A stretch of DNA of 52,194 bases, taken from an archaeon. Lineage in GTDB: Archaea > Undinarchaeota > Undinarchaeia > Undinarchaeales > JBDRKL01. The stretch spans positions 1 to 52,194 of the forward strand of contig JBDRKL010000008.1 in NCBI GenBank assembly GCA_043814055.1, read 5' to 3'. The translations under genes and the position numbers were made by a program. The notes beneath the pieces were generated by a model, which was not told the DNA's origin, made no database searches, and was given only the letters and a program-made list of their open reading frames with translations. This document shows, one piece after another, positions 31,503 through 52,194 of the stretch (its first letter is position 1; the number at the start of each line of letters is the position of its first letter).

Positions 31503-32378
31503 CTAAAGTGGGAGGTTTCCCAAATGCACGCGCTCCATCCCCATCTCTTCCGCAATCTCCCCTGCCCGTTTCACAACCTCAACGCTCGTCGGTTCAACAT
31601 CACTCATTTTATAATGCGGGAAAAACCTTGAGAAATGAATCGGCACATTTGTTCCAAGCTCATCTTTCACAAACTCAACAAGCTCTTTGATTTTTTCCTC
31701 AGAATCATTAAAGCCTGGAATAATCAAATTCGTAACCTCTAAATGAATCCCAAACTCCTTGCAGTTCCGCGCAGTCTGCTTAATCGGCTCCAGACCCATG
31801 CCGTGGCAAATCTTTTTGTAAAACGCATCATCCCACGCCTTCAAGTCCAAATTCATCGCGTCCAGGTAAGGCGAAATCTTCTTCAGCGGCTCAGTGTTTA
31901 TCATCCCGTTTGAAACAAAAACATTGAACATTCCCTGCTCGTGCGCGAGCTTCGCAGTGTCGTAAGCATACTCGTAAAACACAGTTGGCTCTGTGTATGT
32001 GTATGAAATAATTTTCACATTCTGCGCCTTTGCCATTGCCACAATCTCCGCCGGGCTTACTTCTTTCACTTCCATTTCCTCCGGGTCTGCCTGCGAAATC
32101 TCCCAATTCTGGCAGAAGTCGCACGCAAGATTGCAGCCGCAAGTCGCAATTGAAAGCGTCAATTCTCCTGGATGAAAATGATACAGCGGCTTCTTTTCAA
32201 TCGGGTCTACAGAAATCGAGCACGGCTTTCCGTAGGTGATTGCATAAAGCGTTCCGCCAATGTTTTTTCTTGTGCGGCAGAAGCCCTTCTTGCCCTCGGT
32301 GATTGTGCAGCCCCTCGGGCACAGCTCGCACTGGACTTTTTCAGAGCTGAGCTTTTTGTAAAACATTGCTTCGTGCAT
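31503..32378 (-). CDS. amrS: AmmeMemoRadiSam-type radical SAM enzyme (PFL-activating-like)
   Basis: N-terminal CELCPRGC...GFC..R, DPIEKKPLYHFHPG, CNLACDFCQNWEISQ (CxxxCxxC), YTYTEP, HFSRFFP. Confidence 0.88.
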   Translation of the reverse strand: MHEAMFYKKLSSEKVQCELCPRGCTITEGKKGFCRTRKNIGGTLYAITYGKPCSISVDPIEKKPLYHFHPGELTLSIATCGCNLACDFCQNWEISQADPEEMEVKEVSPAEIVAMAKAQNVKIISYTYTEPTVFYEYAYDTAKLAHEQGMFNVFVSNGMINTEPLKKISPYLDAMNLDLKAWDDAFYKKICHGMGLEPIKQTARNCKEFGIHLEVTNLIIPGFNDSEEKIKELVEFVKDELGTNVPIHFSRFFPHYKMSDVEPTSVEVVKRAGEIAEEMGMERVHLGNLPL

Positions 32379-32412
32379 AGCAAGATTTAATAAGTTTAAG
32401 TTTAAGTAAATG

Positions 32413-32557
32413 GTGCTTGGTTGACAGGTTTCACCAAAGGCAAACAAATTGCTTGGCAAGGTGACTTCGCCGCAGGCGCAAATTCGCGACAGCGAATTGC
32501 GCAACACGCTTCGCGTGTTTGTGAATGTCGCCTAGCGTGTCAACTTCGCTAGAAGTT
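32413..32557 (+). ncRNA. Structured 5' leader element of tRNA-Thr (shared with tRNA-Leu)
   Basis: Begins GTGCTTGG; GTTGACA/TGTCAAC long-range stem; hairpins at 32476-32502 and 32503-32519; ends in a 24-mer identical to the one upstream of tRNA-Leu. Confidence 0.65.
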
Positions 32558-32632
32558 GCCTCGGTGGCTCAACGGTAGAGCGTCGCTCTCGTAAAGCGAA
32601 GGTTGGGAGTTCAATTCTCCTCCGGGGCTCCA
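32558..32632 (+). tRNA. tRNA-Thr(CGT), intronless, CCA encoded
   Basis: Acceptor GCCTCGG/CCGGGGC, anticodon arm TCGCT-CTCGTAA-AGCGA, T arm GGGAG-TTCAATT-CTCCT, U73, CCA. Confidence 0.95.
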
Positions 32633-32726
32633 ATTCAAACTTTTTAGTAAAAAAGTTTGATCAAAAACACCCCGCCCACAGGGCTCCAATTCAAACTTTT
32701 TAGTAAAAAAGTTTGATCAAAAACAC
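32625..32726 (+). repeat. 46-bp direct repeat (2 copies) including the tRNA-Thr 3' end and a palindrome
   Basis: GGGCTCCAATTCAAACTTTTTAGTAAAAAAGTTTGATCAAAAACAC at 32625-32670 and 32681-32726; internal TCAAACTTTTT/AAAAAGTTTGA inverted repeat. Confidence 0.9.
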
Positions 32727-32768
32727 AACATCAATTCTCCTGCGCAGACCATTTTCACAAAAGGCACT

Positions 32769-33161
32769 TTACCTTATTTCCCTTAGAAAATCAACAACAG
32801 CTTTCTCGTTGTTCAGCTCCAGCATCCTGAACAGCGTGGTTCTGCTAGCTTCAAGATGCTGTTTTCCCTCGTCGTTTAGTGAATAAACAACACCAACCCC
32901 GTCCATTCTCTCCCTGTTTGAATACTCCTTTACGTGTTTGAAAAGCCTCGCTATGCTGTGCCCGGCAATGTCCGTGAACCCTGCAAGGTTTTTTTGGGAC
33001 GTCCCGCCCTCTGCAAGAAGGTCCAGGAACGCCACAACCCTCCATCGTATGGCTGAGCGCGGGCTGTTCAAGCCGAACTCCCTCAGCCGGGAAAGAGGCT
33101 CCAAAAGGCCTAGCAGTATTCTGTGCTGTTCGGTGGCCTTGTCTGAAATCTCATATGCCAT
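32769..33161 (-). CDS. Winged helix-turn-helix protein (MarR/PadR-like)
   Basis: LLAEGGTSQKNLA...SIARLFK HTH followed by a wing ending VYSLNDEGKQHL. Confidence 0.6.
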   Translation of the reverse strand: MAYEISDKATEQHRILLGLLEPLSRLREFGLNSPRSAIRWRVVAFLDLLAEGGTSQKNLAGFTDIAGHSIARLFKHVKEYSNRERMDGVGVVYSLNDEGKQHLEASRTTLFRMLELNNEKAVVDFLREIR

Positions 33162-33163
33162 TT

Positions 33164-33619
33164 CTAAATCACCAGCCCAATAATCCCAACACTCGCCAGC
33201 ATAACAATACTCCCTGCGATGAAAACTCCAAACGCGATTGAAGCAATCGCCTCTGCTCTTTTCATCTTAAGAACATACGCCCCAAACGACCCTGTCCAAG
33301 CACCGGTCAAAGGAAGTGGAATCGCAACAAAAAGTGCGAGCCCAACAAATCCATATTTCTTAACATAAGGTTCAGCTTTCTTGCGAGCCCGCTCCATTTG
33401 CTTTTCAATAACATTCCCAAGCCGTGGCATTTTGAAAACAACATGCTTGAATACAAGGTCAAGCAGTAAAAACAAGACCGGAATCAAAAGTATGTTCGGA
33501 ACCACGCTCGCCATAAAAACCAACCCAGGGTCCAACCCTGCCGCTATTCCGAGGGGAATCGCCCCCCTAAGTTCTATGAACGGCGTCACTGATATCAGCG
33601 CAAGCCAAAATGGGTTCAT
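33164..33619 (-). CDS. Putative small multidrug export family membrane protein (COG2426-like)
   Basis: PFIELRGAIPLGI, LALFVAIPLPLTGAWTG; start corrected to MNPFWL. Confidence 0.88.
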   Translation of the reverse strand: MNPFWLALISVTPFIELRGAIPLGIAAGLDPGLVFMASVVPNILLIPVLFLLLDLVFKHVVFKMPRLGNVIEKQMERARKKAEPYVKKYGFVGLALFVAIPLPLTGAWTGSFGAYVLKMKRAEAIASIAFGVFIAGSIVMLASVGIIGLVI

Positions 33620-33656
33620 CACAACCCCTATAAATGCAACCAGTATAAAACACTGT

Positions 33657-33983
33657 ATGGTAAGAGTAAATGGCATTGACTGTGACTTCGCGGACACCAC
33701 GTTCAAGCGATTTCGCGGCCTGATGCTCAAGCGAAATTTCAAACCGCTATTCTTTGACTTTGGCAAGGACTCAAGAAACTCGTGCTCGCTCCACACGTTC
33801 TTCATGCTTGAGCCCATTGACATCGTGTTTATCAATTCAAAAAAAGAAATAGTGGACATTCAAACAGCAAAACCCTGGCTGCCCCTGATTCGCCCAAAGA
33901 AAAAAGCCCGTTACGTGCTGGAACTCTCAGCAGGCAAAGGGAAAAAGTTCAGACTTTCGTCCAAGGCAACAATAAAATTTTAA
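33657..33983 (+). CDS. DUF192 (UPF0127) family protein
   Basis: ADTTFKRFRGLM, LHTFFMLEPIDIVFI, ARYVLEL.AG; start corrected to ATG 33657. Confidence 0.85.
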   Translation: MVRVNGIDCDFADTTFKRFRGLMLKRNFKPLFFDFGKDSRNSCSLHTFFMLEPIDIVFINSKKEIVDIQTAKPWLPLIRPKKKARYVLELSAGKGKKFRLSSKATIKF

Positions 33984-34775
33984 TTAATTAGACCAAGGAT
34001 CTTTTACAGGGGCTTTCTTGTACGGGGTTGCTTGCGGCTTGTTAACATTCGCAGCCAGTTTCCCAACATTCGCCAGCTCTTTCTGAATGTCCCTCAGGCT
34101 TGTGCCCAAGTCCTTCATGTTCCCCTTGAGCTCCTCAACATCCTTCTTAACCTTATCATCCTTTGGGGGTATAGGCTTGGACGGCATTGCCGCGCTCTTC
34201 TTCTTGGCGGCTTCAATGTCTTTCTTGAGGTTCTCTATCTCGTCTTTTATCTTCTCAGATTCCTCTGCCTTTTTTTTCTTGCCGATTAATTCCTGTATCT
34301 TCCCGGTTTCTGGCATGTCCGCAAGAACCGTCCTCACCTGATTCTTTGTGGTCTCAAGGAGCATTCTCCACTTTCTAAGCGCCTCTTCCTCGTGCTTCTT
34401 TATCTCGTTCATTGTTTCAAGAGTTTCATCCATACCCAGGAGCGAGTCAACAATCACGTTAAGATTCTTTACAATATTATCATATTCCTCAACCTTCATA
34501 AAGAGCGGAAGTTTTGCCATCTGTGCCTCATTGAGCGCAGGTTCAATCCTCTGCATTGGTATTGGTCTTGGCTGGAACTGAACCGGCGGGGCTGGCGGTG
34601 CCATCGCTGATTCTGGCGGTCTCATTGCCGGTGGTCTTGGCAATGGCGGCCTGCCAGCGGGCGGGTTTAATGCAAATGGCTTTGGCGCGTCAAGTTGTGC
34701 AGTCTCTTTCTCAAGTTCTGCCAACAATTCGTCTTCGCCAAGCGTGTCTTCTTTTTTCTTTTTTAAGAGGGACAT
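33984..34775 (-). CDS. Hypothetical coiled-coil protein with Pro-rich linker
   Basis: Pro-rich segment, PLFMKVEEY motif, long heptad-like helices; AGAGGA-like context. Confidence 0.75.
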   Translation of the reverse strand: MSLLKKKKEDTLGEDELLAELEKETAQLDAPKPFALNPPAGRPPLPRPPAMRPPESAMAPPAPPVQFQPRPIPMQRIEPALNEAQMAKLPLFMKVEEYDNIVKNLNVIVDSLLGMDETLETMNEIKKHEEEALRKWRMLLETTKNQVRTVLADMPETGKIQELIGKKKKAEESEKIKDEIENLKKDIEAAKKKSAAMPSKPIPPKDDKVKKDVEELKGNMKDLGTSLRDIQKELANVGKLAANVNKPQATPYKKAPVKDPWSN

Positions 34776-34880
34776 AATAAGTCTCCAGTGTATTATAAAA
34801 ACCTATAACCAAATGCTCTTTATAAATATTGTCCTGCCCCGAGCCATTATGTTTTTAAGTAAGTAATCCAAGTTATACCT

Positions 34881-35948
34881 ATGCGAAAAATACAGGTGTC
34901 CCGGAAACTTACTGATATTACCCACCATTTCCGGCTAAGAAACATCGCGCTTCTTTCTTTTGGCTTTCTCATCATGCTTGTAGTTGCGCAATGGGTTGGC
35001 TTTGACACGCTGATTCCAATTGTGCAGGAGATGAATCCTTTCTACTTCGCCCTTTTCCTTGCGCTGAAGGTGACCGCACTTCTTATCTGGAACGGCAAGT
35101 GGAAACTGCTCGTTGACGAGATACGAAAAGTGAAGTTTTGGGGCTTGTTCCCAATTACAATGACCTATATGCTGGTCAATAGCATCACGCCCGGCTACAA
35201 TGTCGGCGGCGAGCCTGTAAGGGCGTACTACTTGTCCAAACGAACAGGTCTCAGCATATCAAGGTGCCTAAGCACTGCAGTAATGGACACCGGGGTTGCT
35301 TTTGTCATTTTCATGATGATAACCATGCTGTCCATGTTCTATGTCCTGGTGTTCTTTGACATCCCTGTTGTTGAAGGCCTGATTCAACTCCTGTTCCTAG
35401 TCGTAATCCTTATTTCAGGCATTCTGCTAGTTTTAATCAACAGAAAGAAAACGCCAACAGTGTTTCTTAAATTCTCGCGAAGGTTTATGCACTGGATTTA
35501 CAGGCTGAAGTTCATAAAGAAGCACTACAAAACCTATGAGGATTTCAAAGCGGTTTTCCACGGCGGCCTGCTCAAGTTTGAAGACAGCTGGGACACGCTC
35601 GCAAGGAACAAGAAGCGTCTGGTCCTCGTTGCATTCCTCTCAATACTTCTCCAGATGATTGAGTACCTCAAGATTTACACACTCTTCCTGGCAGTAGGGG
35701 TGCACGTTAACTTCTGGGTAATAATCGTGGTTGTCACAGTTGCATGGGTGCTTGGCTACTTTGTGTTCCTGCCTGGTGGCATCGGCGTTGTGGAGGCTGT
35801 GATGATTGCAATTTTCATCGCGTTTGGAATAGATGCAGGAGCCGCAGGCGCAGTCACGATAGTCAATCGGTTAGTATTCTCATTCATTATATACGGCTTT
35901 GGCACAATTTCGTTTATACACGTGAATTCAAAATATCATAAAAAGTGA
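34881..35948 (+). CDS. Lysylphosphatidylglycerol-synthase TM / flippase-like (UPF0104) membrane protein
   Basis: NSITPGYNVGGEPVRAYYL, PGGIGVVEAVM, many TM helices. Confidence 0.88.
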   Translation: MRKIQVSRKLTDITHHFRLRNIALLSFGFLIMLVVAQWVGFDTLIPIVQEMNPFYFALFLALKVTALLIWNGKWKLLVDEIRKVKFWGLFPITMTYMLVNSITPGYNVGGEPVRAYYLSKRTGLSISRCLSTAVMDTGVAFVIFMMITMLSMFYVLVFFDIPVVEGLIQLLFLVVILISGILLVLINRKKTPTVFLKFSRRFMHWIYRLKFIKKHYKTYEDFKAVFHGGLLKFEDSWDTLARNKKRLVLVAFLSILLQMIEYLKIYTLFLAVGVHVNFWVIIVVVTVAWVLGYFVFLPGGIGVVEAVMIAIFIAFGIDAGAAGAVTIVNRLVFSFIIYGFGTISFIHVNSKYHKK

Positions 35949-36140
35949 TTATTTTCTCACAAAGTAAAGCATCAGGGCAATCCTAATTAAAACAAGCGCC
36001 ATCAACATCCAAAGAATATTTATCAAATTCCCTGTCTGCGCTGCGTAGAGGAAAATTATTACAAAACCAACCCAAGTTACTGCACGAATCTTATTGTGCG
36101 GAAATTTCAGGAATTCCTTGAGTTCGTCGATGAGTTCCAT
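35949..36140 (-). CDS. Small two-TM membrane protein (63 aa)
   Basis: MELIDELKEF... starts just downstream of tRNA-Leu; two hydrophobic segments. Confidence 0.6.
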   Translation of the reverse strand: MELIDELKEFLKFPHNKIRAVTWVGFVIIFLYAAQTGNLINILWMLMALVLIRIALMLYFVRK

Positions 36141-36151
36141 TTTAAGATTAA

Positions 36152-36237
36152 TGCGGGGGGCAGGATTTGAACCTGCGTATTCACTAAGAAACAAGGTCCT
36201 AAACCTTGCGCGATTGGCCAGGCTACGCGACCCCCGC
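36152..36237 (-). tRNA. tRNA-Leu(TAG), intronless, CCA not encoded
   Basis: Acceptor GCGGGGG/CCCCCGC-A, anticodon arm CAAGG-TTTAGGA-CCTTG, long variable arm, T arm GCAGG-TTCAAAT-CCTGC. Confidence 0.95.
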
Positions 36238-36332
36238 AACTTCTAGCGAAGTTGACACGCTGTCCCGCACCACTTTGGTGATGCTGCGGGACTACCGAGC
36301 GAGTCCACCTCAGTCAGTAAATTGCCAAGCAC
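36238..36332 (-). ncRNA. Structured 5' leader element of tRNA-Leu (shared with tRNA-Thr)
   Basis: Begins GTGCTTGGCAA; TTGGCA/TGTCAA stem; GTCCCGCA/TGCGGGAC hairpin; identical 24-mer abutting tRNA +1; ATAAATA about 20-26 nt upstream. Confidence 0.65.
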
Positions 36333-36362
36333 AATTAAGTATCTAACTAGGTATTTATCTTT

Positions 36363-38447
36363 TCACTCCAACCCATCAAAAATATTTTTTGCAACTTTAA
36401 CCCCAATCAGCTTTGAAACTCTCTCAAGCCCGGCCTTCTTGATGTCCTCAATGCCTTTAATCCCATTTGAGTGCAGCGTCCTCGCCCTAACTCTTCCAAT
36501 ATTCTTAATCCTAACCAGGGGCAAAAGTTCCATCTTAACACCATACTTCAGCCTCTTCCTAACTGTATTCGCCATCGGCACAATCTTCTCCCTCTCCGCA
36601 AGCCGCGCAATCTCTGAGCAGGCATAGAGCAGCCAATCCGCCACAGTCAGCTTCCCGTGCAAAACTCCCGGCGGCAGACCATACTTGTCATAAATCTTGT
36701 CATCAGTAACCTCGTTCATCCACTCAAAGAAAATGTAAGCATTTCTGAACGCGCGAAACTGCTCATCAACCAAGTCATATTTCTCAAACTGCTCATACAG
36801 CTCAACTTCCTCCGAACGCCGAACAGTTCCAATCGGCCGCATCTCCGCGGAGTCCGAAAGCACAGTCAACAAGACGACCTCATCCAATTTCTCCCTCTCA
36901 AACAACTGCAGAAAATCCCACGCAGTCAAAGGATCAAGATAAAGCTCAGCGACTCGTCTACCTAATTTAGTACATCCTAACATATTCTCATGGCGATTAA
37001 CAAACCCCCAGTCAAACAATTGGTCAAGAACCCGGTCAATCAACTCCTCCAATTTTTCCATATCTCCAAACTGGTGAGCATAAAACGTTTTCTCAAAAAA
37101 TTCGTAAAGATTCTCCTTGCTCCACGGCAGCTGCGCAAGCAGGCCGAGCACGTGCGTTCTCATAACCGGTTCAACCCCGAGCTTTGAGCTAATCGGCTCT
37201 GGGCTCCCTTCAACATAATGCTCCCACAGCATGTCAAATTCTTCCTCGTTCTTCGCAATCAAAATCGCTTCCCCCTCATTGTCATACTTCGGTCTTCCTG
37301 CCCTGCCGAACATCTGGTGCACTTCAAGAATTGGAATCGGTTCCATTCCAAAATTCCCATACCTCCTGTAATCGCGAACAATCACGCGCTTCCCAGGCAA
37401 GTTCACCCCTGCGGCAAGAGTCGGCGTAGCTGAGATGACTTTAATCAAATTATTCTTGTAATTCTTCTCAACAATCATTCTCTGTTTCTGGTGCAGTCCT
37501 GCGTGGTGGAACGCTGTGCCCTGCCTTACACAATCCGAAAGTCTCTTGCACTGCCTCGTTGGCGAGTCAAGAACATTCAAAACCTGCTCTGATAATTTTG
37601 ACAATTCTTTTTTCTCTTTCGTGTCCAGAATCTCGTAAATCTTTTTCCCGGTTTCTTCTGCCTCTTTCTCAGCTCCTTTCCGTGTGTTAACAAAAACCAG
37701 GCTCTGCGCCCCGTTCTTCACAATGTCCAGGGCCAAAACTTTTGAAGGCTCCAGTCCGCCGCTAATCTTCAAGTCAGCCTTCCCGCTGAACGTAACCTCC
37801 CCGTCCAGATAAACTCCGCGCGAAAGTTTTATCGGTCTGAACTCTGACTCAACAAGCTCAGCTTCCAACCACTCCGCAATCTCGTCCGAGTTTTCAATTG
37901 TCGCTGACAGCGCCAACATCTGCACTTTCATACTTTTCAATCTTGTCGCAACCATCTCAATCGCCGGCCCCCTATTCACAGAATCAATAAGATGCACCTC
38001 GTCAAGCACGACAAGCCTGACGTCCCTGAGCCAATCCTGCCCGTGCCGCATTATTGAATCAAGTTTCTCATTTGTCAAAATCACAATATCAAACCCAGCG
38101 AGTTCTGCCCCGCTTGAGTCATAGTCCCCGGTTGAAATCCCAATCTTCGCAAACTCGCTGTACTTCTCCTTCATGTCCTCAAACTTCTCAAAAGCAAGAG
38201 CCCTGAGCGGCGCAGTGTAAAGCGCCTTACCCCCTTTCAAAACCTGATTAAGCATGGCGAGCTCTGCAATCAAAGTTTTCCCCGAGGCTGTCGGAATACT
38301 CAGCACAAGATTTTTCCCTTCAAAAACTCCGGACTCAATCGCTTCTTTCTGCGGCGGGAACAGCTCGTCAATTCTGTCAATTTCCTGAACTCTCTGCACC
38401 ACATCCGCGAGCGCTGGGTATTTTTTTGAAATCTCCTCAAGTTTCAT
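36363..38447 (-). CDS. hel308: Ski2-like helicase Hel308/Hjm
   Basis: IPTASGKT, DEVH, LSAT, FHHAGL, TPTLAAGVNLP, QMFGRAGRP, C-terminal HhH IGRVRAR.L. Confidence 0.93.
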   Translation of the reverse strand: MKLEEISKKYPALADVVQRVQEIDRIDELFPPQKEAIESGVFEGKNLVLSIPTASGKTLIAELAMLNQVLKGGKALYTAPLRALAFEKFEDMKEKYSEFAKIGISTGDYDSSGAELAGFDIVILTNEKLDSIMRHGQDWLRDVRLVVLDEVHLIDSVNRGPAIEMVATRLKSMKVQMLALSATIENSDEIAEWLEAELVESEFRPIKLSRGVYLDGEVTFSGKADLKISGGLEPSKVLALDIVKNGAQSLVFVNTRKGAEKEAEETGKKIYEILDTKEKKELSKLSEQVLNVLDSPTRQCKRLSDCVRQGTAFHHAGLHQKQRMIVEKNYKNNLIKVISATPTLAAGVNLPGKRVIVRDYRRYGNFGMEPIPILEVHQMFGRAGRPKYDNEGEAILIAKNEEEFDMLWEHYVEGSPEPISSKLGVEPVMRTHVLGLLAQLPWSKENLYEFFEKTFYAHQFGDMEKLEELIDRVLDQLFDWGFVNRHENMLGCTKLGRRVAELYLDPLTAWDFLQLFEREKLDEVVLLTVLSDSAEMRPIGTVRRSEEVELYEQFEKYDLVDEQFRAFRNAYIFFEWMNEVTDDKIYDKYGLPPGVLHGKLTVADWLLYACSEIARLAEREKIVPMANTVRKRLKYGVKMELLPLVRIKNIGRVRARTLHSNGIKGIEDIKKAGLERVSKLIGVKVAKNIFDGLE

Positions 38448-46504: not shown

Positions 46505-47578
46505 TTAGCCTTTGTTTTTTAATCTTGTGGCTTTTTCGTAGAATGTTTTAGCTGAATCCTTTCGGCCAAGGCAGTTCAGTATATCGCCCTTCAGGTTCAA
46601 ACTGTTGCAACTCGTTGGCCTCACTTTCAGCGCCTCATTTATAACCACCAGCGCTACGCCATACTTTTTCAGGTTATAGAAGGCCTCGGCTTTTGAGAAC
46701 AATCCCTGATAAAAATCCGGCTTCTGCTTTAGGGCTGTGTTAAACTCCCTGATGGCTTCCTTATGTTTCCCTAATTGTTTCAGGGCCAACCCTTTTCCGT
46801 GGTATGACGCGTACAGTTCGCTTTTTTTGGTTGTGTTTAGTTCAATTGCCCTGTTAAAAGCAAGCGCCGCCTTTCTGTATTTCTTCAGGCTAAGCAACAC
46901 GTTTCCCATATTATGCCAAACCACCCAGTCATTTGGGCTCTGCTTGTCTGCCTTTTTAATTGCCCTCAGAGCCGCTTTGGAATCTTTTTCATCGTGTTCA
47001 AGAGATAGTGCTGTGTAGTGCCAGTCCCTCCTATCCTTAGGCGTTTTAATCTTACCCATGTCTATCAGGCCTGTTTGAATCATCCTAATCTCAATGCCGA
47101 TTTCTCCCAACTCGCCGCCTTCAAATAATCCAGGGGCATCCCTGACAATTTTTTTCCAGTTCTCGCCCCTAAGCACCATTTTAACGTGCTGAGCAATATC
47201 TTTTGGCGTTGGCTTGCCGCTCAACTGCTGATATGATTTTTTGATAAGCTCGTCTATCGCACTGTTCCCAAGAAAATCAGTTTTCTCCACTATCTGGTTC
47301 AGTTCTTTCCCAAACTTAGTGTATTCCTGCAGTGCCTCTTTCTTTAAATCTGCAAATGCGTTTTCCCCTATTTTTCCTCTTTGAAGAACAAGGCGTAGTC
47401 GGCTCGTCACCTCTGCTCTTATATTTCTAGGCACCAGTCTGGAATTTAGACTCTCTAAAAACTCCTTTCTTGTTACGCTGACCCCTTTCTTTTCTATCAC
47501 TACTCCAAGCACAGCTTGAGGTAGTTTGTCAGGTGTTCGGCACTCATCATATGCAATTCGTATGCGACTCTTTATCAT
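46505..47578 (-). CDS. Tetratricopeptide repeat protein
   Basis: C-terminal TPRs (WHNMGNVL...A...FNRAIEL; YHGKGLAL...A...FNTAL; NLKGDIL...A...YEKA). Confidence 0.85.
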   Translation of the reverse strand: MIKSRIRIAYDECRTPDKLPQAVLGVVIEKKGVSVTRKEFLESLNSRLVPRNIRAEVTSRLRLVLQRGKIGENAFADLKKEALQEYTKFGKELNQIVEKTDFLGNSAIDELIKKSYQQLSGKPTPKDIAQHVKMVLRGENWKKIVRDAPGLFEGGELGEIGIEIRMIQTGLIDMGKIKTPKDRRDWHYTALSLEHDEKDSKAALRAIKKADKQSPNDWVVWHNMGNVLLSLKKYRKAALAFNRAIELNTTKKSELYASYHGKGLALKQLGKHKEAIREFNTALKQKPDFYQGLFSKAEAFYNLKKYGVALVVINEALKVRPTSCNSLNLKGDILNCLGRKDSAKTFYEKATRLKNKG

Positions 47579-47618
47579 TTATGATTATGTCTTGACAATC
47601 CGGACTTAAAAACCTTTT

Positions 47619-49082
47619 TCAATCAACATCAATCTGCGCTTTCTGCAATTTCCCAGAGTAATCAAAGTAAACCGTCTTGGTCTCAGAGAACTCATGAATC
47701 CCCTCAATCCCTGCCTCGCGCGTCCCATTCCCAGTCCCCTTCACCCCGCCGAAAGGCAGGTGTGCCTCAGCTCCAATTGTTGAAGAGTTAACATAAGTCA
47801 ACCCAGCCTCAATCTTCTTAATCGCAGTAAATGCATTCCTCATATTCTCTGTGTAAATCGCCGAGCTCAGGCCATACTCAACCCCGTTGCATATTTTTAT
47901 AGCATCCTTCAAATCCTTTGCAGAAATCATGCTCACAACCGGCCCGAAAATTTCCTCCTGCGCAATCCTCATGCTGGGTGCAACATTCGTGAACAGAGTC
48001 GGCTCGTAGAAGAATCCTTTATCTGAACCAACCTTTCCACCAACGAGCAGTTTCGCCCCCTCCTTTTTCCCAATCTCAGTATACTTATGAGTCTTATCCA
48101 CAGCCTTTTGATTTATGAGCGGACCAACATCAGTCTTTGAGTCAATTCCATTCCCAACCTTCAGCTTCTTAACCCTCTCAACCAGCATCTTCTCAAGTTT
48201 CCCTTTAACTTTCTCATGCACAATCACCCTGCTCGAAGCCGTGCATCTCTGCCCTGTAGTCCCGTAGCCGCCGAATAAAATCCCCTCAACAGCCAAGTCC
48301 AACTTAGCATCATCCATAACTATAATCGCGTTCTTCCCGCCGAGCTCCAACCCAAGCTTCCTCACTCCAACTTTCTTTGTGATATGCTCCCCAACTTCTT
48401 TTGAACCTGTAAACGAAATCCCGCGAATCTTCTTGCTGTCCAAAATCGCCTCCCCAACTTCTCCGCCTGGCCCAGTCACAAGATTAACAACCCCTTTCGG
48501 CAGTCCAGCCTTCTCAAGAATCTTCACAAGCTCAATCGCGCAGAGCGGCGTATCCGTAGCAGGCTTGAAAACCACTGTGTTCCCGCAGACCAACGCGGGC
48601 ATCAGCTTCCACGCTGGAATCGCAATTGGAAAATTCCATGGCGCAATCAGGCCCATAACACCAACAGGAACCCGCAGAGTCATCGCGAACTTGTTCGGCA
48701 GTTCAGATGGTGTAGTATATCCAAACAACCTCCTACCTTCGCCAGCCATGTACTCAGCAATGTCAATCGCTTCCTGAACATCACCCAAGCCCTCAGAGAT
48801 AACCTTGCCCATCTCAGTTGTAACCAGCTTGCCAAGCTCTTCCTTCCTCTGTTTCAAAATCTCAGCAGTCTTAAAAAGTATCTCAGCCCTCTGCGGTGCA
48901 GGAGTTTCGCTCCACTTGTCAAAAGCATCCTCAGCCGCGTCAACTGCAGATTTAACATCTTCTTTAGTCCCTTTCTGAAAAGTCCCGAGCGATTTCTTAG
49001 TCGCTGGATTAATACTCTCAAAAACTTCGCCAGAAGACGATTTCTTCCACTCGCCGTTTATTAGGATTTTATGCTCAGCCAT
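47619..49082 (-). CDS. NAD(P)-dependent aldehyde dehydrogenase
   Basis: PWNFP, FTGS, ELGGKN, GQRC (catalytic Cys), EEIFGP, PFGG. Confidence 0.95.
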   Translation of the reverse strand: MAEHKILINGEWKKSSSGEVFESINPATKKSLGTFQKGTKEDVKSAVDAAEDAFDKWSETPAPQRAEILFKTAEILKQRKEELGKLVTTEMGKVISEGLGDVQEAIDIAEYMAGEGRRLFGYTTPSELPNKFAMTLRVPVGVMGLIAPWNFPIAIPAWKLMPALVCGNTVVFKPATDTPLCAIELVKILEKAGLPKGVVNLVTGPGGEVGEAILDSKKIRGISFTGSKEVGEHITKKVGVRKLGLELGGKNAIIVMDDAKLDLAVEGILFGGYGTTGQRCTASSRVIVHEKVKGKLEKMLVERVKKLKVGNGIDSKTDVGPLINQKAVDKTHKYTEIGKKEGAKLLVGGKVGSDKGFFYEPTLFTNVAPSMRIAQEEIFGPVVSMISAKDLKDAIKICNGVEYGLSSAIYTENMRNAFTAIKKIEAGLTYVNSSTIGAEAHLPFGGVKGTGNGTREAGIEGIHEFSETKTVYFDYSGKLQKAQIDVD

Positions 49083-51571: not shown

Positions 51572-52194
51572 ATGCAAAAAATATGGAAAAAAGCAGGAGC
51601 CGCCCTCAGCGTTGGCCTTATGATAGGCGCAACAATGGCCGGAGCAGCTTTTGCAGAAGAAACCGAAGATGTTGCAGCAATGGACCTCGGCGACTACCAG
51701 GACTTGATGGTCTCATCTGATGGGACAGTCACAGGCCTCTACGTAGTTGGCGAGAACGCCGCTGCTGCTGACGTGATTGCAGCTGTCGATATGGCAGGCG
51801 CAACCATGAACATTCAGGTTTCTGGCGACGAAGCAGGCGAGGGCGAAATCACCCTTACGCCTCTGACGACAGACGCAGCAGGTGTAACCAGGCACATACA
51901 GCTGGACAAGGACGCAACATATGCGTACGAGTTCGGCGGTTCAACCGCAGTAACAACAGATGTTATCGGTCCAGCAGGTTACGCATCTGGTGACGGTGTC
52001 GTAGACTACCTGTACAGCCACAAGGAAAAGGGCTACACGTACATCGACGGTTTGGAGAAGACCTGGCACGAAGAGGTTGAGATAACCCTTTCCGGTCTGA
52101 ACGCATCCAGAGATATGCTGGACACGCAGACAGCGGATCAGTACGACGAAGTGTTCCTGAAGGTTTCAGGCAGCACTATCAAGTACTACTACAA
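51572..52194 (+). CDS. S-layer protein, 5' part (runs off the window; not in ORF track)
   Basis: MQKIWKKAGAALSVGLMIGATMAGAAFA signal peptide, then DLGDY...YVVGENAAAADVIAAVDMA, typical of the Methanococcales/Thermococcales/DPANN S-layer N-terminal domain. Confidence 0.85.
   Translation, partial: MQKIWKKAGAALSVGLMIGATMAGAAFAEETEDVAAMDLGDYQDLMVSSDGTVTGLYVVGENAAAADVIAAVDMAGATMNIQVSGDEAGEGEITLTPLTTDAAGVTRHIQLDKDATYAYEFGGSTAVTTDVIGPAGYASGDGVVDYLYSHKEKGYTYIDGLEKTWHEEVEITLSGLNASRDMLDTQTADQYDEVFLKVSGSTIKYYY

What the first reader, a model, noticed from the sequence alone, without database searches (positions are those of the whole stretch)
32413..32557. Identical 24-nt motif and shared leader architecture abut position +1 of two unrelated tRNA genes (tRNA-Thr copy)
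Seen: AGCGTGTCAACTTCGCTAGAAGTT lies at 32534-32557, directly before G+1 of tRNA-Thr, and again on the minus strand at 36238-36261, directly before G+1 of tRNA-Leu. Both leaders start about 25 nt after a TATA-like box with GTGCTTGG, both contain TCACCAAAG, and both can close a long-range UUGRCA/UGUCAA stem around variable GC-rich hairpins. A terminal hairpin AACUUC-GCUA-GAAGUU ends exactly at -1. An alternative pairing (AGCG with CGCU; CUAGCG/CGCUAG in this copy) would open that hairpin or form a pseudoknot. Established: archaeal pre-tRNA leaders are usually short, unconserved and removed by RNase P or HARP, and N. equitans tRNAs are leaderless. Theta ribozymes act on tRNA 3' trailers, not 5' leaders. 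Inference: this is a conserved cis element for tRNA 5' maturation, such as a self-processing RNA, a processing switch or a nuclease-recognition handle. The alternative is a small mobile element that targets tRNA 5' boundaries precisely.
Basis: partly seen in the sequence, partly recalled or inferred. Interest (0 to 1): 0.9.

Follow-up and report, generated by a model that had tools for sequence, protein, structure and literature searches.

The report
Pseudoknotted repeat element before tRNA genes
The identical 24 bases in front of two tRNA genes are the folded end of a small repeated element present about sixty times in this tiny archaeal genome, mostly at the edges of tRNA genes and just after other genes, so it is probably not a device made for trimming those two tRNAs.

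Summary
The 24-mer abuts G+1 of tRNA-Thr(CGU) and tRNA-Leu(UAG), and also of tRNA-Pro(CGG) on another contig.

It is one module of a genome-wide, modular repeat family, not a leader-specific signal. Two covariance models give 62 merged copies. Of these, 26 touch tRNA genes: 10 as sense leaders, 7 just after tRNA 3' ends, 6 antisense beside tRNA ends and 3 antisense inside tRNA introns. Twelve of 33 core copies sit right after protein-gene stop codons.

Several copies are flanked by direct repeats of the target, 9 to about 80 nt long. Diverged relatives occur in 5 of 12 other genomes of the order, in the same kinds of places.

The unit is a covarying hairpin followed by a compact H-type pseudoknot.

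RNase P RNA, Pop5 and Rpp30 are encoded. No Rfam family matches. None of eight transposase, integrase, Cas1 and reverse-transcriptase Pfam families searched was found in the 82%-complete assembly.

Best reading: a new small insertion element, tolerated at sites where RNA processing removes it. How it spreads is unknown, and an RNA function is not excluded.

The parts
32386..32394 (+). A/T-rich TATA-like box (TTTAATAAG) about 23 nt upstream of the leader start. It is the inferred promoter of the leader-tRNA-Thr transcript.
   Evidence: Read. There is no A/T-rich box within 40 nt of tRNA +1, so the tRNA must be transcribed through the leader (inference; no RNA data).
32413..32557 (+). 145-nt leader of tRNA-Thr(CGU): one 'type II' copy of the repeat family. 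Its parts are a 5' GTGCTTGG, an ACCAAAGGCA box (32433-32442), hairpin A and a terminal pseudoknot.
   Evidence: R1 hit 32424-32472 (20.7 bits); R2 hit 32456-32558 (46 bits); BLAST shows it is a mosaic of modules found elsewhere in the genome; fold -58.9 kcal/mol, z -3.75.
32460..32532 (+). Hairpin A: GGUGAC-UUC...GAA-U-GUCGCC with a conserved bulged U. Two extra GC-rich hairpins are inserted at its tip.
   Evidence: Alignment A3: helix 99.1% paired, 4 of 10 pairs changed on both sides; the apical hairpins recur elsewhere, for example in the tRNA-Trp intron.
32534..32558 (+). Terminal H-type pseudoknot, which contains the 24-mer. The parts are AGCG (32534-37), TGT, CAACUU (32541-46), CGCU (32547-50), AG and AAGUUG (32553-58). 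The last G is tRNA G+1.
   Evidence: the pseudoknot helix is 90.9% paired with 4 of 4 pairs changed on both sides. 46 of 2264 hairpins of 6 bp with a 6-nt loop have a perfect 4-bp pseudoknot partner, against 10 in a shifted control.
32558..32632 (+). tRNA-Thr(CGU), with encoded CCA.
   Evidence: ARAGORN; Rfam RF00005, 67.1 bits.
32625..32726 (+). Two copies (32625-32670 and 32681-32726) of a 46-nt unit, separated by 10 nt. The unit is the tRNA-Thr 3' end (GGGCTCCA) plus a trailer hairpin CAAAC-T5...A6-GTTTGATCAAAAAC. A T-arm-like fragment follows at about 32731-32745.
   Evidence: Read; BLAST gives a 23-nt exact repeat at 32681-32703. The trailer hairpin family also follows other tRNAs and starts some introns.
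36352..36358 (-). A/T-rich TATA-like box (ATAAATA). It lies just after the stop codon (36363-36365) of the upstream 694-aa ORF and about 23 nt before the leader start.
   Evidence: Read; ORF 36363..38447(-).
36238..36335 (-). 98-nt leader of tRNA-Leu(UAG): one 'type I' copy. Its parts are a 5' GTGCTTGG, GGUAG, the core hairpin P2 (36292-36262) with the conserved loop AGCAUCACCAAA, and a terminal pseudoknot.
   Evidence: R1 hit 36253-36327, 71.1 bits. P2 covariation: 95.6% paired, 6 of 8 pairs changed on both sides. Fold -37.3 kcal/mol, z -2.67.
36237..36261 (-). Terminal pseudoknot of the Leu leader, identical to the Thr copy. The last G is tRNA G+1.
36152..36237 (-). tRNA-Leu(UAG).
   Evidence: Rfam RF00005, 52.5 bits; ARAGORN.

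Best explanation
The 24-mer is the 3'-terminal pseudoknot module of a family of small (about 75-170 nt), non-coding, modular repeat elements.

Each unit has four parts:
- a 5' box (ACCAAAGGCA-like);
- one covarying hairpin, either type I (GGUAG plus a 7-8 bp stem with the loop AGCAUCACAAA) or type II (NNNNNN-UUC...GAA-U-NNNNNN);
- from zero to several extra GC-rich hairpins;
- a compact H-type pseudoknot, built from 4 nt, a 3-nt linker, a 6-bp stem, and a 6-nt loop whose first 4 nt pair with the upstream 4 nt.

The elements have entered the genome as DNA insertions. They sit at places where they do no harm because RNA processing or translation stops before them: directly 5' of tRNA +1, directly 3' of tRNAs, in the D-, anticodon- and T-loop regions (with regeneration of a complete tRNA), and just after stop codons.

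In the two window copies, the promoter lies upstream of the element. The leader is transcribed with the tRNA, and the organism's ordinary RNase P (RNA plus Pop5 and Rpp30) cuts at +1 and discards or releases the leader.

Shown: the family, its structure, its distribution, the target duplications and the presence of RNase P genes. Inferred: transcription of the leader, cleavage by RNase P, and insertion as the origin. Unknown: the enzyme or route by which copies spread.
For: Family and copy number:
- R1 gives 36 matches at E<=0.1 and R2 gives 42 at E<=0.01.
- Merged, these make 62 elements. Of these, 26 are tRNA-linked against 0.75 expected (binomial P about 2e-33 over the whole genome; 7e-11 if only an assumed 12% non-coding fraction is allowed).

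Both orientations and non-tRNA sites:
- 10 are sense leaders and 7 start at most 19 nt after a sense tRNA 3' end.
- 3 end at an antisense tRNA 3' end, 3 lie antisense just upstream of a tRNA, and 3 lie antisense inside introns.
- The antisense Arg(UCU) and Arg(CCU) introns align to the leader's last 55 nt or so, up to the element end (z 7.8 and 5.9).
- 12 of 33 core copies lie 0-52 nt after a same-strand ORF.

Insertion signatures:
- Direct repeats of the target flank 7 of 33 copies in a script test, one of them a tandem pair.
- Examples: 20 nt of the tRNA-Ser 3' end; 17 nt of tRNA-Ser(UGA) from -2 to +15; 9 nt including a stop codon.
- Repeats of 53-62 nt at protein-gene 3' ends differ mostly at synonymous sites.
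- tRNA-His has a 20-nt repeat and tRNA-Met a 16-nt repeat, three times in tandem.
- The same pattern is seen in relatives: G010, 4 tRNAs; G004; G006 and G003.

Not tied to particular tRNAs: 5 of 6 tRNA-Thr(CGU) genes in relatives lack such a leader, and the G010 tRNA-Leu(UAG) lacks it too.

Conventional processing is available: RNase P RNA at 141 bits, Pop5 at 82.5 bits and Rpp30 at 98 bits.

U at -1 is general in this genome, in 24 of 31 tRNAs, with or without the element.

No Rfam match was found.
Against: No mobilising enzyme was found. The families PF00589, PF07282, PF01797, PF00078, PF01867, PF01609, PF00239 and PF01548 are all absent from the 82%-complete assembly. No IS-like long repeat is present either.

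The two window copies themselves show no flanking target duplication.

The direct repeats vary in length from 9 to about 80 nt, which fits no standard transposase.

A covarying pseudoknot, and G.U outnumbering A.C in the stems by 15 to 5, point to a structure used as a single strand, most simply RNA. About 29 copies are co-oriented with the neighbouring gene, against 9 antisense. Together these would also fit a selected RNA function.

The junction falls exactly at mature tRNA ends (+1, or the CCA end) in at least 8 copies. Selection alone explains this only loosely.

A leader structured right up to -1 is an unusual RNase P substrate (from my own knowledge; not tested).

No close relatives and no RNA data were available to show presence/absence polymorphism or transcripts.
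Confidence: 0.6

Rival explanations
1. The elements are a family of functional structured RNAs, either small RNAs or cis-acting 3'-end modules. They are transcribed with the neighbouring gene. RNase P cleavage at tRNA +1 (or tRNase Z at the tRNA 3' end) sets their ends. The terminal pseudoknot protects the new 3' end from exonucleases, and the conserved loop AGCAUCACAAA is a binding site. Mobility, if any, is secondary.
For: - Hairpin A, P2 and the pseudoknot all covary strongly.
- 13 different complementary 4-mer pairs occur in the pseudoknot.
- G.U outnumbers A.C by 15 to 5 on the element-sense strand.
- About 29 copies are co-oriented with the adjacent gene, against 9 antisense.
- The architecture persists in 5 of 12 other genomes of the order.
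- The pseudoknot ends exactly at -1 in 5 leaders.
- Three leaders follow a protein gene's stop codon by 36-52 nt, so RNase P could form that mRNA's 3' end.
- As a precedent, MITE-like sRNA elements and sRNA-tRNA co-transcripts are described in Pyrobaculum (PMC6009581, passages read).
Against: - Nine tRNA-linked copies lie antisense to the host transcript, three of them inside introns.
- Target duplications and tandem re-insertions are insertion marks, not features of an RNA gene.
- The distribution over tRNA species is not conserved between relatives.
- Most copies after ORFs have no promoter of their own.
- No RNA data exist.
Confidence: 0.22
2. The copies are scars of larger integrative plasmids or viruses that recombine with tRNA genes and gene 3' ends through a site-specific recombinase. 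What remains is the arm next to the attachment site, including a replacement promoter and leader for the tRNA.
For: - The direct repeats cover a tRNA 3' end from the T-loop to CCA (20 nt, 16 nt), or from the tRNA 5' flank to the D-loop (13-20 nt). These are positions typical of integrase crossover sites (recalled from Williams 2002; not read here).
- The long repeats at protein-gene ends differ mostly at synonymous sites, as expected for an element-borne copy of the target.
- A 3.8-kb cargo segment (ArsP_1 permease, DsbD_2) is bounded by repeats of the tRNA-Trp promoter plus 5' part.
- tRNA disruption by an integrating element with a recombinase is described in Caldiarchaeum (PMC3293823, abstract read).
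Against: - Units between the repeats are uniform and complete (about 74-170 nt), not ragged deletion remnants.
- More than 20 different targets would need as many site specificities.
- No PF00589 or PF00239 recombinase is present.
- No related sequence was found in the viral collection.
- A covarying pseudoknot is not expected of a double-stranded protein-binding arm.
Confidence: 0.1
3. One reading: the leader is a cis element made for tRNA 5' maturation, either a self-cleaving RNA that cuts at +1 or a recognition handle or switch for a nuclease.
For: - The structure ends at -1 in 5 leaders, and its last base pair uses G+1 (C-G in 10 of 10 aligned rows, though the pair never varies and so is uninformative).
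- The pseudoknot is conserved.
- Rpp29 was not found.
- A weak PIN_5 (HARP-like) match exists at contig 10:52752-52868 (32.9 bits, covering only positions 155-193 of the 205-position profile).
Against: - Only 10 of 41 tRNAs carry such a leader.
- The same module occurs after ORFs, after tRNAs, and inverted in introns.
- Two leaders have the bases GT between the hairpin's GTT and +1.
- There is no conserved unpaired core of the kind ribozymes have. The linker and loop residues vary, apart from one G.
- No Rfam ribozyme match was found at E<=10.
- RNase P RNA, Pop5 and Rpp30 are present.
Confidence: 0.05

Closest known systems
Bacterial REP/BIME elements (GTAG-tagged repetitive extragenic palindromes; PMC3733652, abstract and passages read)
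   Same: Both are short GC-rich stem-loops in tens of copies, mostly downstream of coding regions. Both combine into mosaics of modules, show G.T pairs that suggest transcription, and have stems that covary between subfamilies. Type I copies carry G(U/C)AG at the 5' foot of the stem in 18 of 20 aligned copies.
   Different: - This organism is an archaeon; the paper lists only bacterial phyla.
- In these elements the last G of GUAG pairs.
- The loop is long (15-17 nt) and conserved.
- The unit also has a pseudoknot.
- Copies are flanked by target duplications, which REPs lack.
- No Y1 transposase (RAYT, PF01797) was found.
- The Thr copy in the finding is type II and has no GUAG.
MITEs, including the MITE-like sRNA elements of Pyrobaculum calidifontis (PMC6009581, passages read)
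   Same: Both are non-coding, about 100 nt long, present in many copies, lineage-specific, modular and rearranged, and lie in regions that do not align with relatives. There may be overlap between a mobile element and an expressed small RNA.
   Different: No terminal inverted repeats were seen. The target duplication is variable and often long (9-80 nt) instead of short and fixed. There are no C/D boxes. The association with tRNA gene ends is strong, and no partner transposase was found.
Integrative elements that recombine with archaeal tRNA genes and leave tRNA fragments (PMC3293823, abstract read; PMC3218864, passages read)
   Same: Partial tRNA copies flank the inserted DNA while a complete tRNA is regenerated. 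There is a link between insertions, introns and disrupted tRNA genes.
   Different: Those elements are kilobases long and encode a recombinase. Here the unit is about 100 nt, structured, present at some 60 sites, and also lies after protein genes. No recombinase gene was found.
RNase P-dependent 3'-end formation next to a tRNA-like structure (MALAT1/mascRNA), and pseudoknot domains upstream of viral tRNA-like structures (recalled; not read here)
   Same: A stable tertiary structure ends exactly where RNase P would cut, 5' of a tRNA or tRNA-like fold.
   Different: Those are eukaryotic or viral single cases with a triple helix or several pseudoknots. Here the structure is a repeated archaeal element before genuine tRNAs. 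Nothing about expression or stability is shown.
Ordinary archaeal pre-tRNA 5' leaders
   Same: The leader lies between a TATA-type promoter and +1 and is presumably removed by RNase P. U at -1 matches most tRNAs of this genome (24 of 31).
   Different: These leaders are 98-145 nt long, highly structured and repeated, whereas tRNA genes without the element have their A/T-rich promoter box about 25-35 nt upstream of +1, which implies short leaders.

Membership tests
Any Rfam family (including self-cleaving ribozymes and known pseudoknot RNAs) | A match to a curated covariance model | tested here: not met
   At the gathering threshold only the two tRNAs match in the window. With E up to 10 over 32300-36450, nothing falls on either leader.
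Self-cleaving ribozyme | Site-specific cleavage without protein, with a conserved catalytic core | not testable with these tools
   No conserved unpaired core is visible. Linker and loop residues vary, apart from one G. Activity needs a bench assay.
REP/RAYT system | A GTAG tag at one end of a short palindrome | tested here: inconclusive
   G(T/C)AG is present in 18 of 20 type I copies, but its last G pairs. It is absent from type II copies such as the Thr leader.
REP/RAYT system | An associated Y1 (IS200-like) transposase gene | tested here: not met
   PF01797 was not found; the assembly is 82% complete.
REP/RAYT system | No target-site duplication | tested here: not met
   Direct repeats of the target flank several copies.
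MITE | Terminal inverted repeats | tested here: not met
   The ends of repeat-bounded copies were read. The left end (A..TTAACCAAAGG) and the right end (..GCGGAG) are not inverted copies of each other. This was checked by eye only.
MITE | A short target-site duplication of fixed length | tested here: not met
   Repeat lengths are 9, 13-20, 30, about 53-62 and about 80 nt.
MITE | Small, non-coding and multicopy | tested here: met
   62 merged copies of about 75-170 nt.
MITE | A partner transposase in the genome | tested here: not met
   PF01609, PF07282, PF01797, PF01548 and PF01867 were not found. There is no long multicopy repeat. The assembly is incomplete.
tRNA-targeting integrative element | Direct repeats made of a tRNA end, with a complete tRNA regenerated | tested here: met
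   Met for tRNA-Ser(CGA), Ser(UGA), His, Met and others, and in relatives. Not seen for the two window copies.
tRNA-targeting integrative element | An encoded integrase or recombinase | tested here: not met
   PF00589 and PF00239 are absent. The 3.8-kb segment bounded by tRNA-Trp repeats has none.
RNase P substrate (ordinary pre-tRNA leader) | RNase P is present in the organism | tested here: met
   RNase P RNA RF00373 at 141.2 bits, Pop5 and Rpp30. Rpp29 was not found.
RNase P substrate (ordinary pre-tRNA leader) | The leader is transcribed and cut at +1 | not testable with these tools
   No sequencing run could be listed.

The most novel reading that the evidence does not exclude
The family is an RNA-level entity: a pseudoknot-capped RNA that uses the cell's tRNA-processing enzymes (RNase P, tRNase Z, the splicing endonuclease) to define or free its own ends.

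In the leader position, RNase P cleavage at tRNA +1 would create a 3' end sealed by the pseudoknot. This would be an archaeal counterpart of MALAT1/mascRNA-type 3'-end formation, and it could also finish upstream mRNAs.

The same element, entering the anticodon-loop, D-loop and T-loop regions, would be the source of this order's large tRNA introns and partial tRNA copies. That would link leaders, trailers and introns as states of one element.
Probability: 0.2. Interest if true: 0.85.

Novelty: new variant of a known kind. Interest (0 to 1): 0.58.

Why it matters
tRNA genes of ultrasmall archaea are unusually interrupted, and how their introns, split genes and fragments arise is an open question.

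In this genome one structured unit of about 100 nt is found as a tRNA leader, as a tRNA trailer, inverted at the start of tRNA introns, and after protein genes, often with target duplications. That gives a concrete, testable candidate for the agent that remodels tRNA genes in this lineage.

The well-supported miniature pseudoknot that ends exactly at the RNase P site is also a clean substrate for two questions. How does archaeal RNase P deal with fully structured leaders? Do released leaders survive as RNAs?

For annotation, it shows that identical sequence before unrelated tRNAs need not be a processing signal.

Tried and rejected
- my first regex census returned 0 because of a scripting fault (greedy groups). 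It was redone.
- an 11-mer search with 2 mismatches gave 472 mostly chance hits and was useless.
All 117 or more hits are bacterial chance matches and none was used.
- the metagenome scan with a 22-mer gave 1 hit, a chance match in an unrelated coding region (no tRNA, no similarity to the genome).
- two viral scans gave 3 and 5 hits, all chance matches in coding sequence. R1 scored at most 13.9 bits on them.
- the exact 21-mer (up to 2 mismatches) is in 0 of 40 other genomes sampled. The genome has no relative closer than order in the collection, so empty-site comparisons were impossible.
- no RNA holder was listed and no run at all was listed.
- C/D box, H/ACA and K-turn readings of the core hairpin were considered by eye and dropped. 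There is no RUGAUGA/CUGA pair, no internal pocket and no tandem G.A.
- The TnpB omega-RNA, IS200/IS605, IS110 bridge-RNA and casposon readings were dropped. PF07282, PF01797, PF01548 and PF01867 are absent, and these elements do not make such direct repeats.
- A DGR reading of the duplicated gene ends was dropped. The differences are not adenine-specific and no reverse transcriptase is present.
- Leader-trailer pairing into a bulge-helix-bulge site was looked at by eye only and found weak.
- The weak helix P1 (61% paired) is not claimed.
- Literature: six searches listed no paper describing such an element. I saw listings and abstracts only, apart from the passages named above. Supplements were not opened.
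Full report
**The observation.** The 24-mer is present exactly as described, at 32534-32557 (+) and 36238-36261 (-). No occurrence is expected by chance. It runs up to G+1 of tRNA-Thr(CGU) (32558) and tRNA-Leu(UAG) (36237). Both leaders begin with GTGCTTGG about 23 nt after an A/T-rich box. Neither leader has such a box within 40 nt of +1, so by sequence the tRNAs must be transcribed through the leader. The window is contig 8 of a 979,685-bp, 14-contig, 82%-complete small archaeal genome with about 47% G+C.

**Not two copies but a family.**
- The 21-nt core occurs at 5 places in the genome. Three abut a sense tRNA +1 (Thr-CGU, Leu-UAG, Pro-CGG). One is followed by GTA and then the 3' end of an antisense tRNA. 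One has no tRNA next to it.
- Variants with other stem sequences precede tRNA-Thr(UGU), Thr(GGU), Asn and Ser(GCU).
- BLAST shows both leaders to be mosaics of modules scattered over the genome in both orientations.
- A model of the 'type I' core (alignment A1, model R1) finds 36 copies at E<=0.1.
- A model of the 'type II' two-hairpin unit (A3, R2) finds 42 copies.
- Merged, these are 62 elements.

**Anatomy.** Each unit has four parts.
1. A 5' box, ACCAAAGGCA-like.
2. One hairpin of either of two types. Type I is GGUAG followed by a 7-8 bp stem (95.6% of cells paired, 6 of 8 pairs changed on both sides, 0 of 500 shuffles reach the score), with a 15-17 nt loop that begins AGCAUCACAAA. Type II is NNNNNN-UUC...GAA-U-NNNNNN (99.1% paired).
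3. From zero to several extra GC-rich hairpins.
4. A terminal module.

Four nucleotides lying 3 nt upstream of the 6-bp stem pair with the first four loop nucleotides. All 4 of these pairs show changes on both sides in A3 (90.9% paired), as do all 3 pairs present in A2. In a census of all 2264 hairpins of 6 bp with a 6-nt loop in the genome, 46 have a perfect partner in this register, against 10 in a shifted control. About 41 of the 46 are clearly family members, and they use 13 different 4-mers. The interleaved order of the strands makes this an H-type pseudoknot. In the leaders, its last base pair uses tRNA G+1. G.U pairs outnumber A.C by 15 to 5 on the element-sense strand, which is a modest sign that this strand is the one that folds.

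**Where the copies lie.**
- 26 of 62 touch a tRNA gene, against 0.75 expected. One tRNA in that count was added by me by eye.
- Of the 26, 10 are sense leaders and 7 start at most 19 nt after a sense tRNA 3' end.
- The intron cases align to the leader's last 55 nt or so, right up to the element end (z 7.8 and 5.9).
- 12 of 33 core copies begin 0-52 nt after a same-strand ORF, using a crude ORF call of at least 90 aa.

**Insertion marks.**
- A script found significant flanking direct repeats for 7 of 33 copies, one of them a tandem pair.
- Examples are 20 nt of the tRNA-Ser(CGA) 3' end, 17 nt of tRNA-Ser(UGA) from -2 to +15, a 17-nt and a 30-nt repeat, and 53-62 nt of two protein-gene 3' ends.
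- In the first ten codons of one such pair I count six synonymous and no replacement differences. This suggests that the two copies evolved as coding sequence in different lineages.
- By reading I also found a 9-nt repeat including a stop codon, a 20-nt repeat around another element type before tRNA-His, and a 16-nt repeat of the tRNA-Met 3' end, three times in tandem at a contig end.
- T-loop-like fragments follow copies downstream of tRNA-Leu(GAG), Leu(UAA) and Tyr.
- The two window copies show no such repeat.

**Relatives.**
- The exact motif is absent from 40 other genomes sampled.
- R2 finds diverged copies in 5 of 12 other genomes of the order: 6, 3, 3, 2 and 1 copies.
- Their contexts match those in this genome. 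One is antisense in the tRNA-Arg(UCU) intron, one follows tRNA-Arg(CCU) with a 16-nt repeat of the tRNA end, one is antisense beside tRNA-Phe, and others follow ORFs.
- In G010, four unrelated tRNAs each have a copy of tRNA positions 1 to 11-15, then a conserved element of about 105 nt, then the full tRNA.
- Of six tRNA-Thr(CGU) genes in relatives, five have a plain promoter and one (G001) has a type II-like leader.
- So the family is old and order-wide, it is expanded in this genome, and it is not tied to particular tRNAs.

**Processing machinery.** RNase P RNA (141 bits), Pop5 and Rpp30 are encoded. Rpp29 was not found. A partial PIN_5 match exists. U at -1 is the rule in this genome, in 24 of 31 tRNAs, with or without the element. 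No Rfam family matches the leaders.

**What remains open.** No integrase, resolvase, DDE, Y1, IS110 or TnpB transposase, Cas1 or reverse transcriptase family was detected, and no IS-like repeat either. The assembly is incomplete, and repeats are often missing from such assemblies. The variable repeat length, the single-strand structure and the bias towards the sense orientation keep an RNA-level role or route possible. No RNA data could be obtained, and no closer relative was found.

**Verdict.** The maturation-device reading is unlikely (about 0.05). The small insertion-element reading is the best supported (about 0.6). A functional pseudoknot-capped RNA is the main rival (about 0.2).

Noticed in passing
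window 32625-32745: Downstream of tRNA-Thr(CGU), a 46-nt unit made of the last 8 nt of the tRNA plus a T-run trailer hairpin (CAAAC-T5..A6-GTTTGATCAAAAAC) occurs twice, 10 nt apart. A T-arm-like fragment follows. The same trailer hairpin family (AAC-stem-GTTGAYCAAAAG) follows at least 10 other tRNAs, starts the tRNA-Gly, Met and Val(UAC) introns, and follows truncated tRNA-Glu and tRNA-His 5' copies.
   Followed up: partly
G000 contig 6: 47100-51029 (L220): A 3.8-kb segment is bounded by near-identical copies of the tRNA-Trp promoter plus the first 11-18 nt of the tRNA. It encodes an ArsP_1 permease and a DsbD_2-like membrane protein, with no recombinase. It looks like a cargo island recombined into the tRNA 5' region.
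   Followed up: partly
G000 contig 12: 153104-153225, and contig 13 end: 47380-47655: The tRNA-Met 3' end (16 nt) is repeated around a 74-nt element of a different sequence type. The element-plus-repeat unit stands three times in tandem at the end of contig 13. Two contigs probably break at this array.
   Followed up: partly
G000 contig 12: about 102180-102345 (-): A tRNA-Pro(UGG)-like gene with an insertion in the T-loop region is missed by ARAGORN and by the Rfam scan. I recognised it by eye. Several ARAGORN labels are doubtful: 'Pyl(cta)' is a tRNA-Arg(UCU) with an intron, 'His(atg)' on contig 6 looks false, and 'Pro(tgg)' at contig 12:132988 looks like tRNA-Gln.
   Followed up: no
G000, whole genome: At least 17 of about 41 tRNA genes carry introns of 24-193 nt. 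The large ones are built from the same GC-rich hairpin modules as the leaders.
   Followed up: partly
G010 loci L175, L186, L191, L198: In a genome of the same order, tRNA-Thr(GGU), Ala(GGC), Arg(GCG) and Tyr each have a copy of their first 11-15 nt, then a conserved element of about 105 nt ending ...GCCAAGCGTCATTGGAAAAT, then the full gene. This is a second case of identical sequence abutting +1 of unrelated tRNAs.
   Followed up: partly
G000 contig 10: 52752-52868 (L002): A partial PIN_5 (PF08745) match at 32.9 bits, covering only profile positions 155-193, lies in a 167-aa ORF. Whether it is a HARP-type RNase P was not examined.
   Followed up: no
window 51971-52194: The last 224 nt of the window are 92% identical to the end of contig 4 (150022-150245), so a repeat lies at the contig ends.
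   Followed up: no
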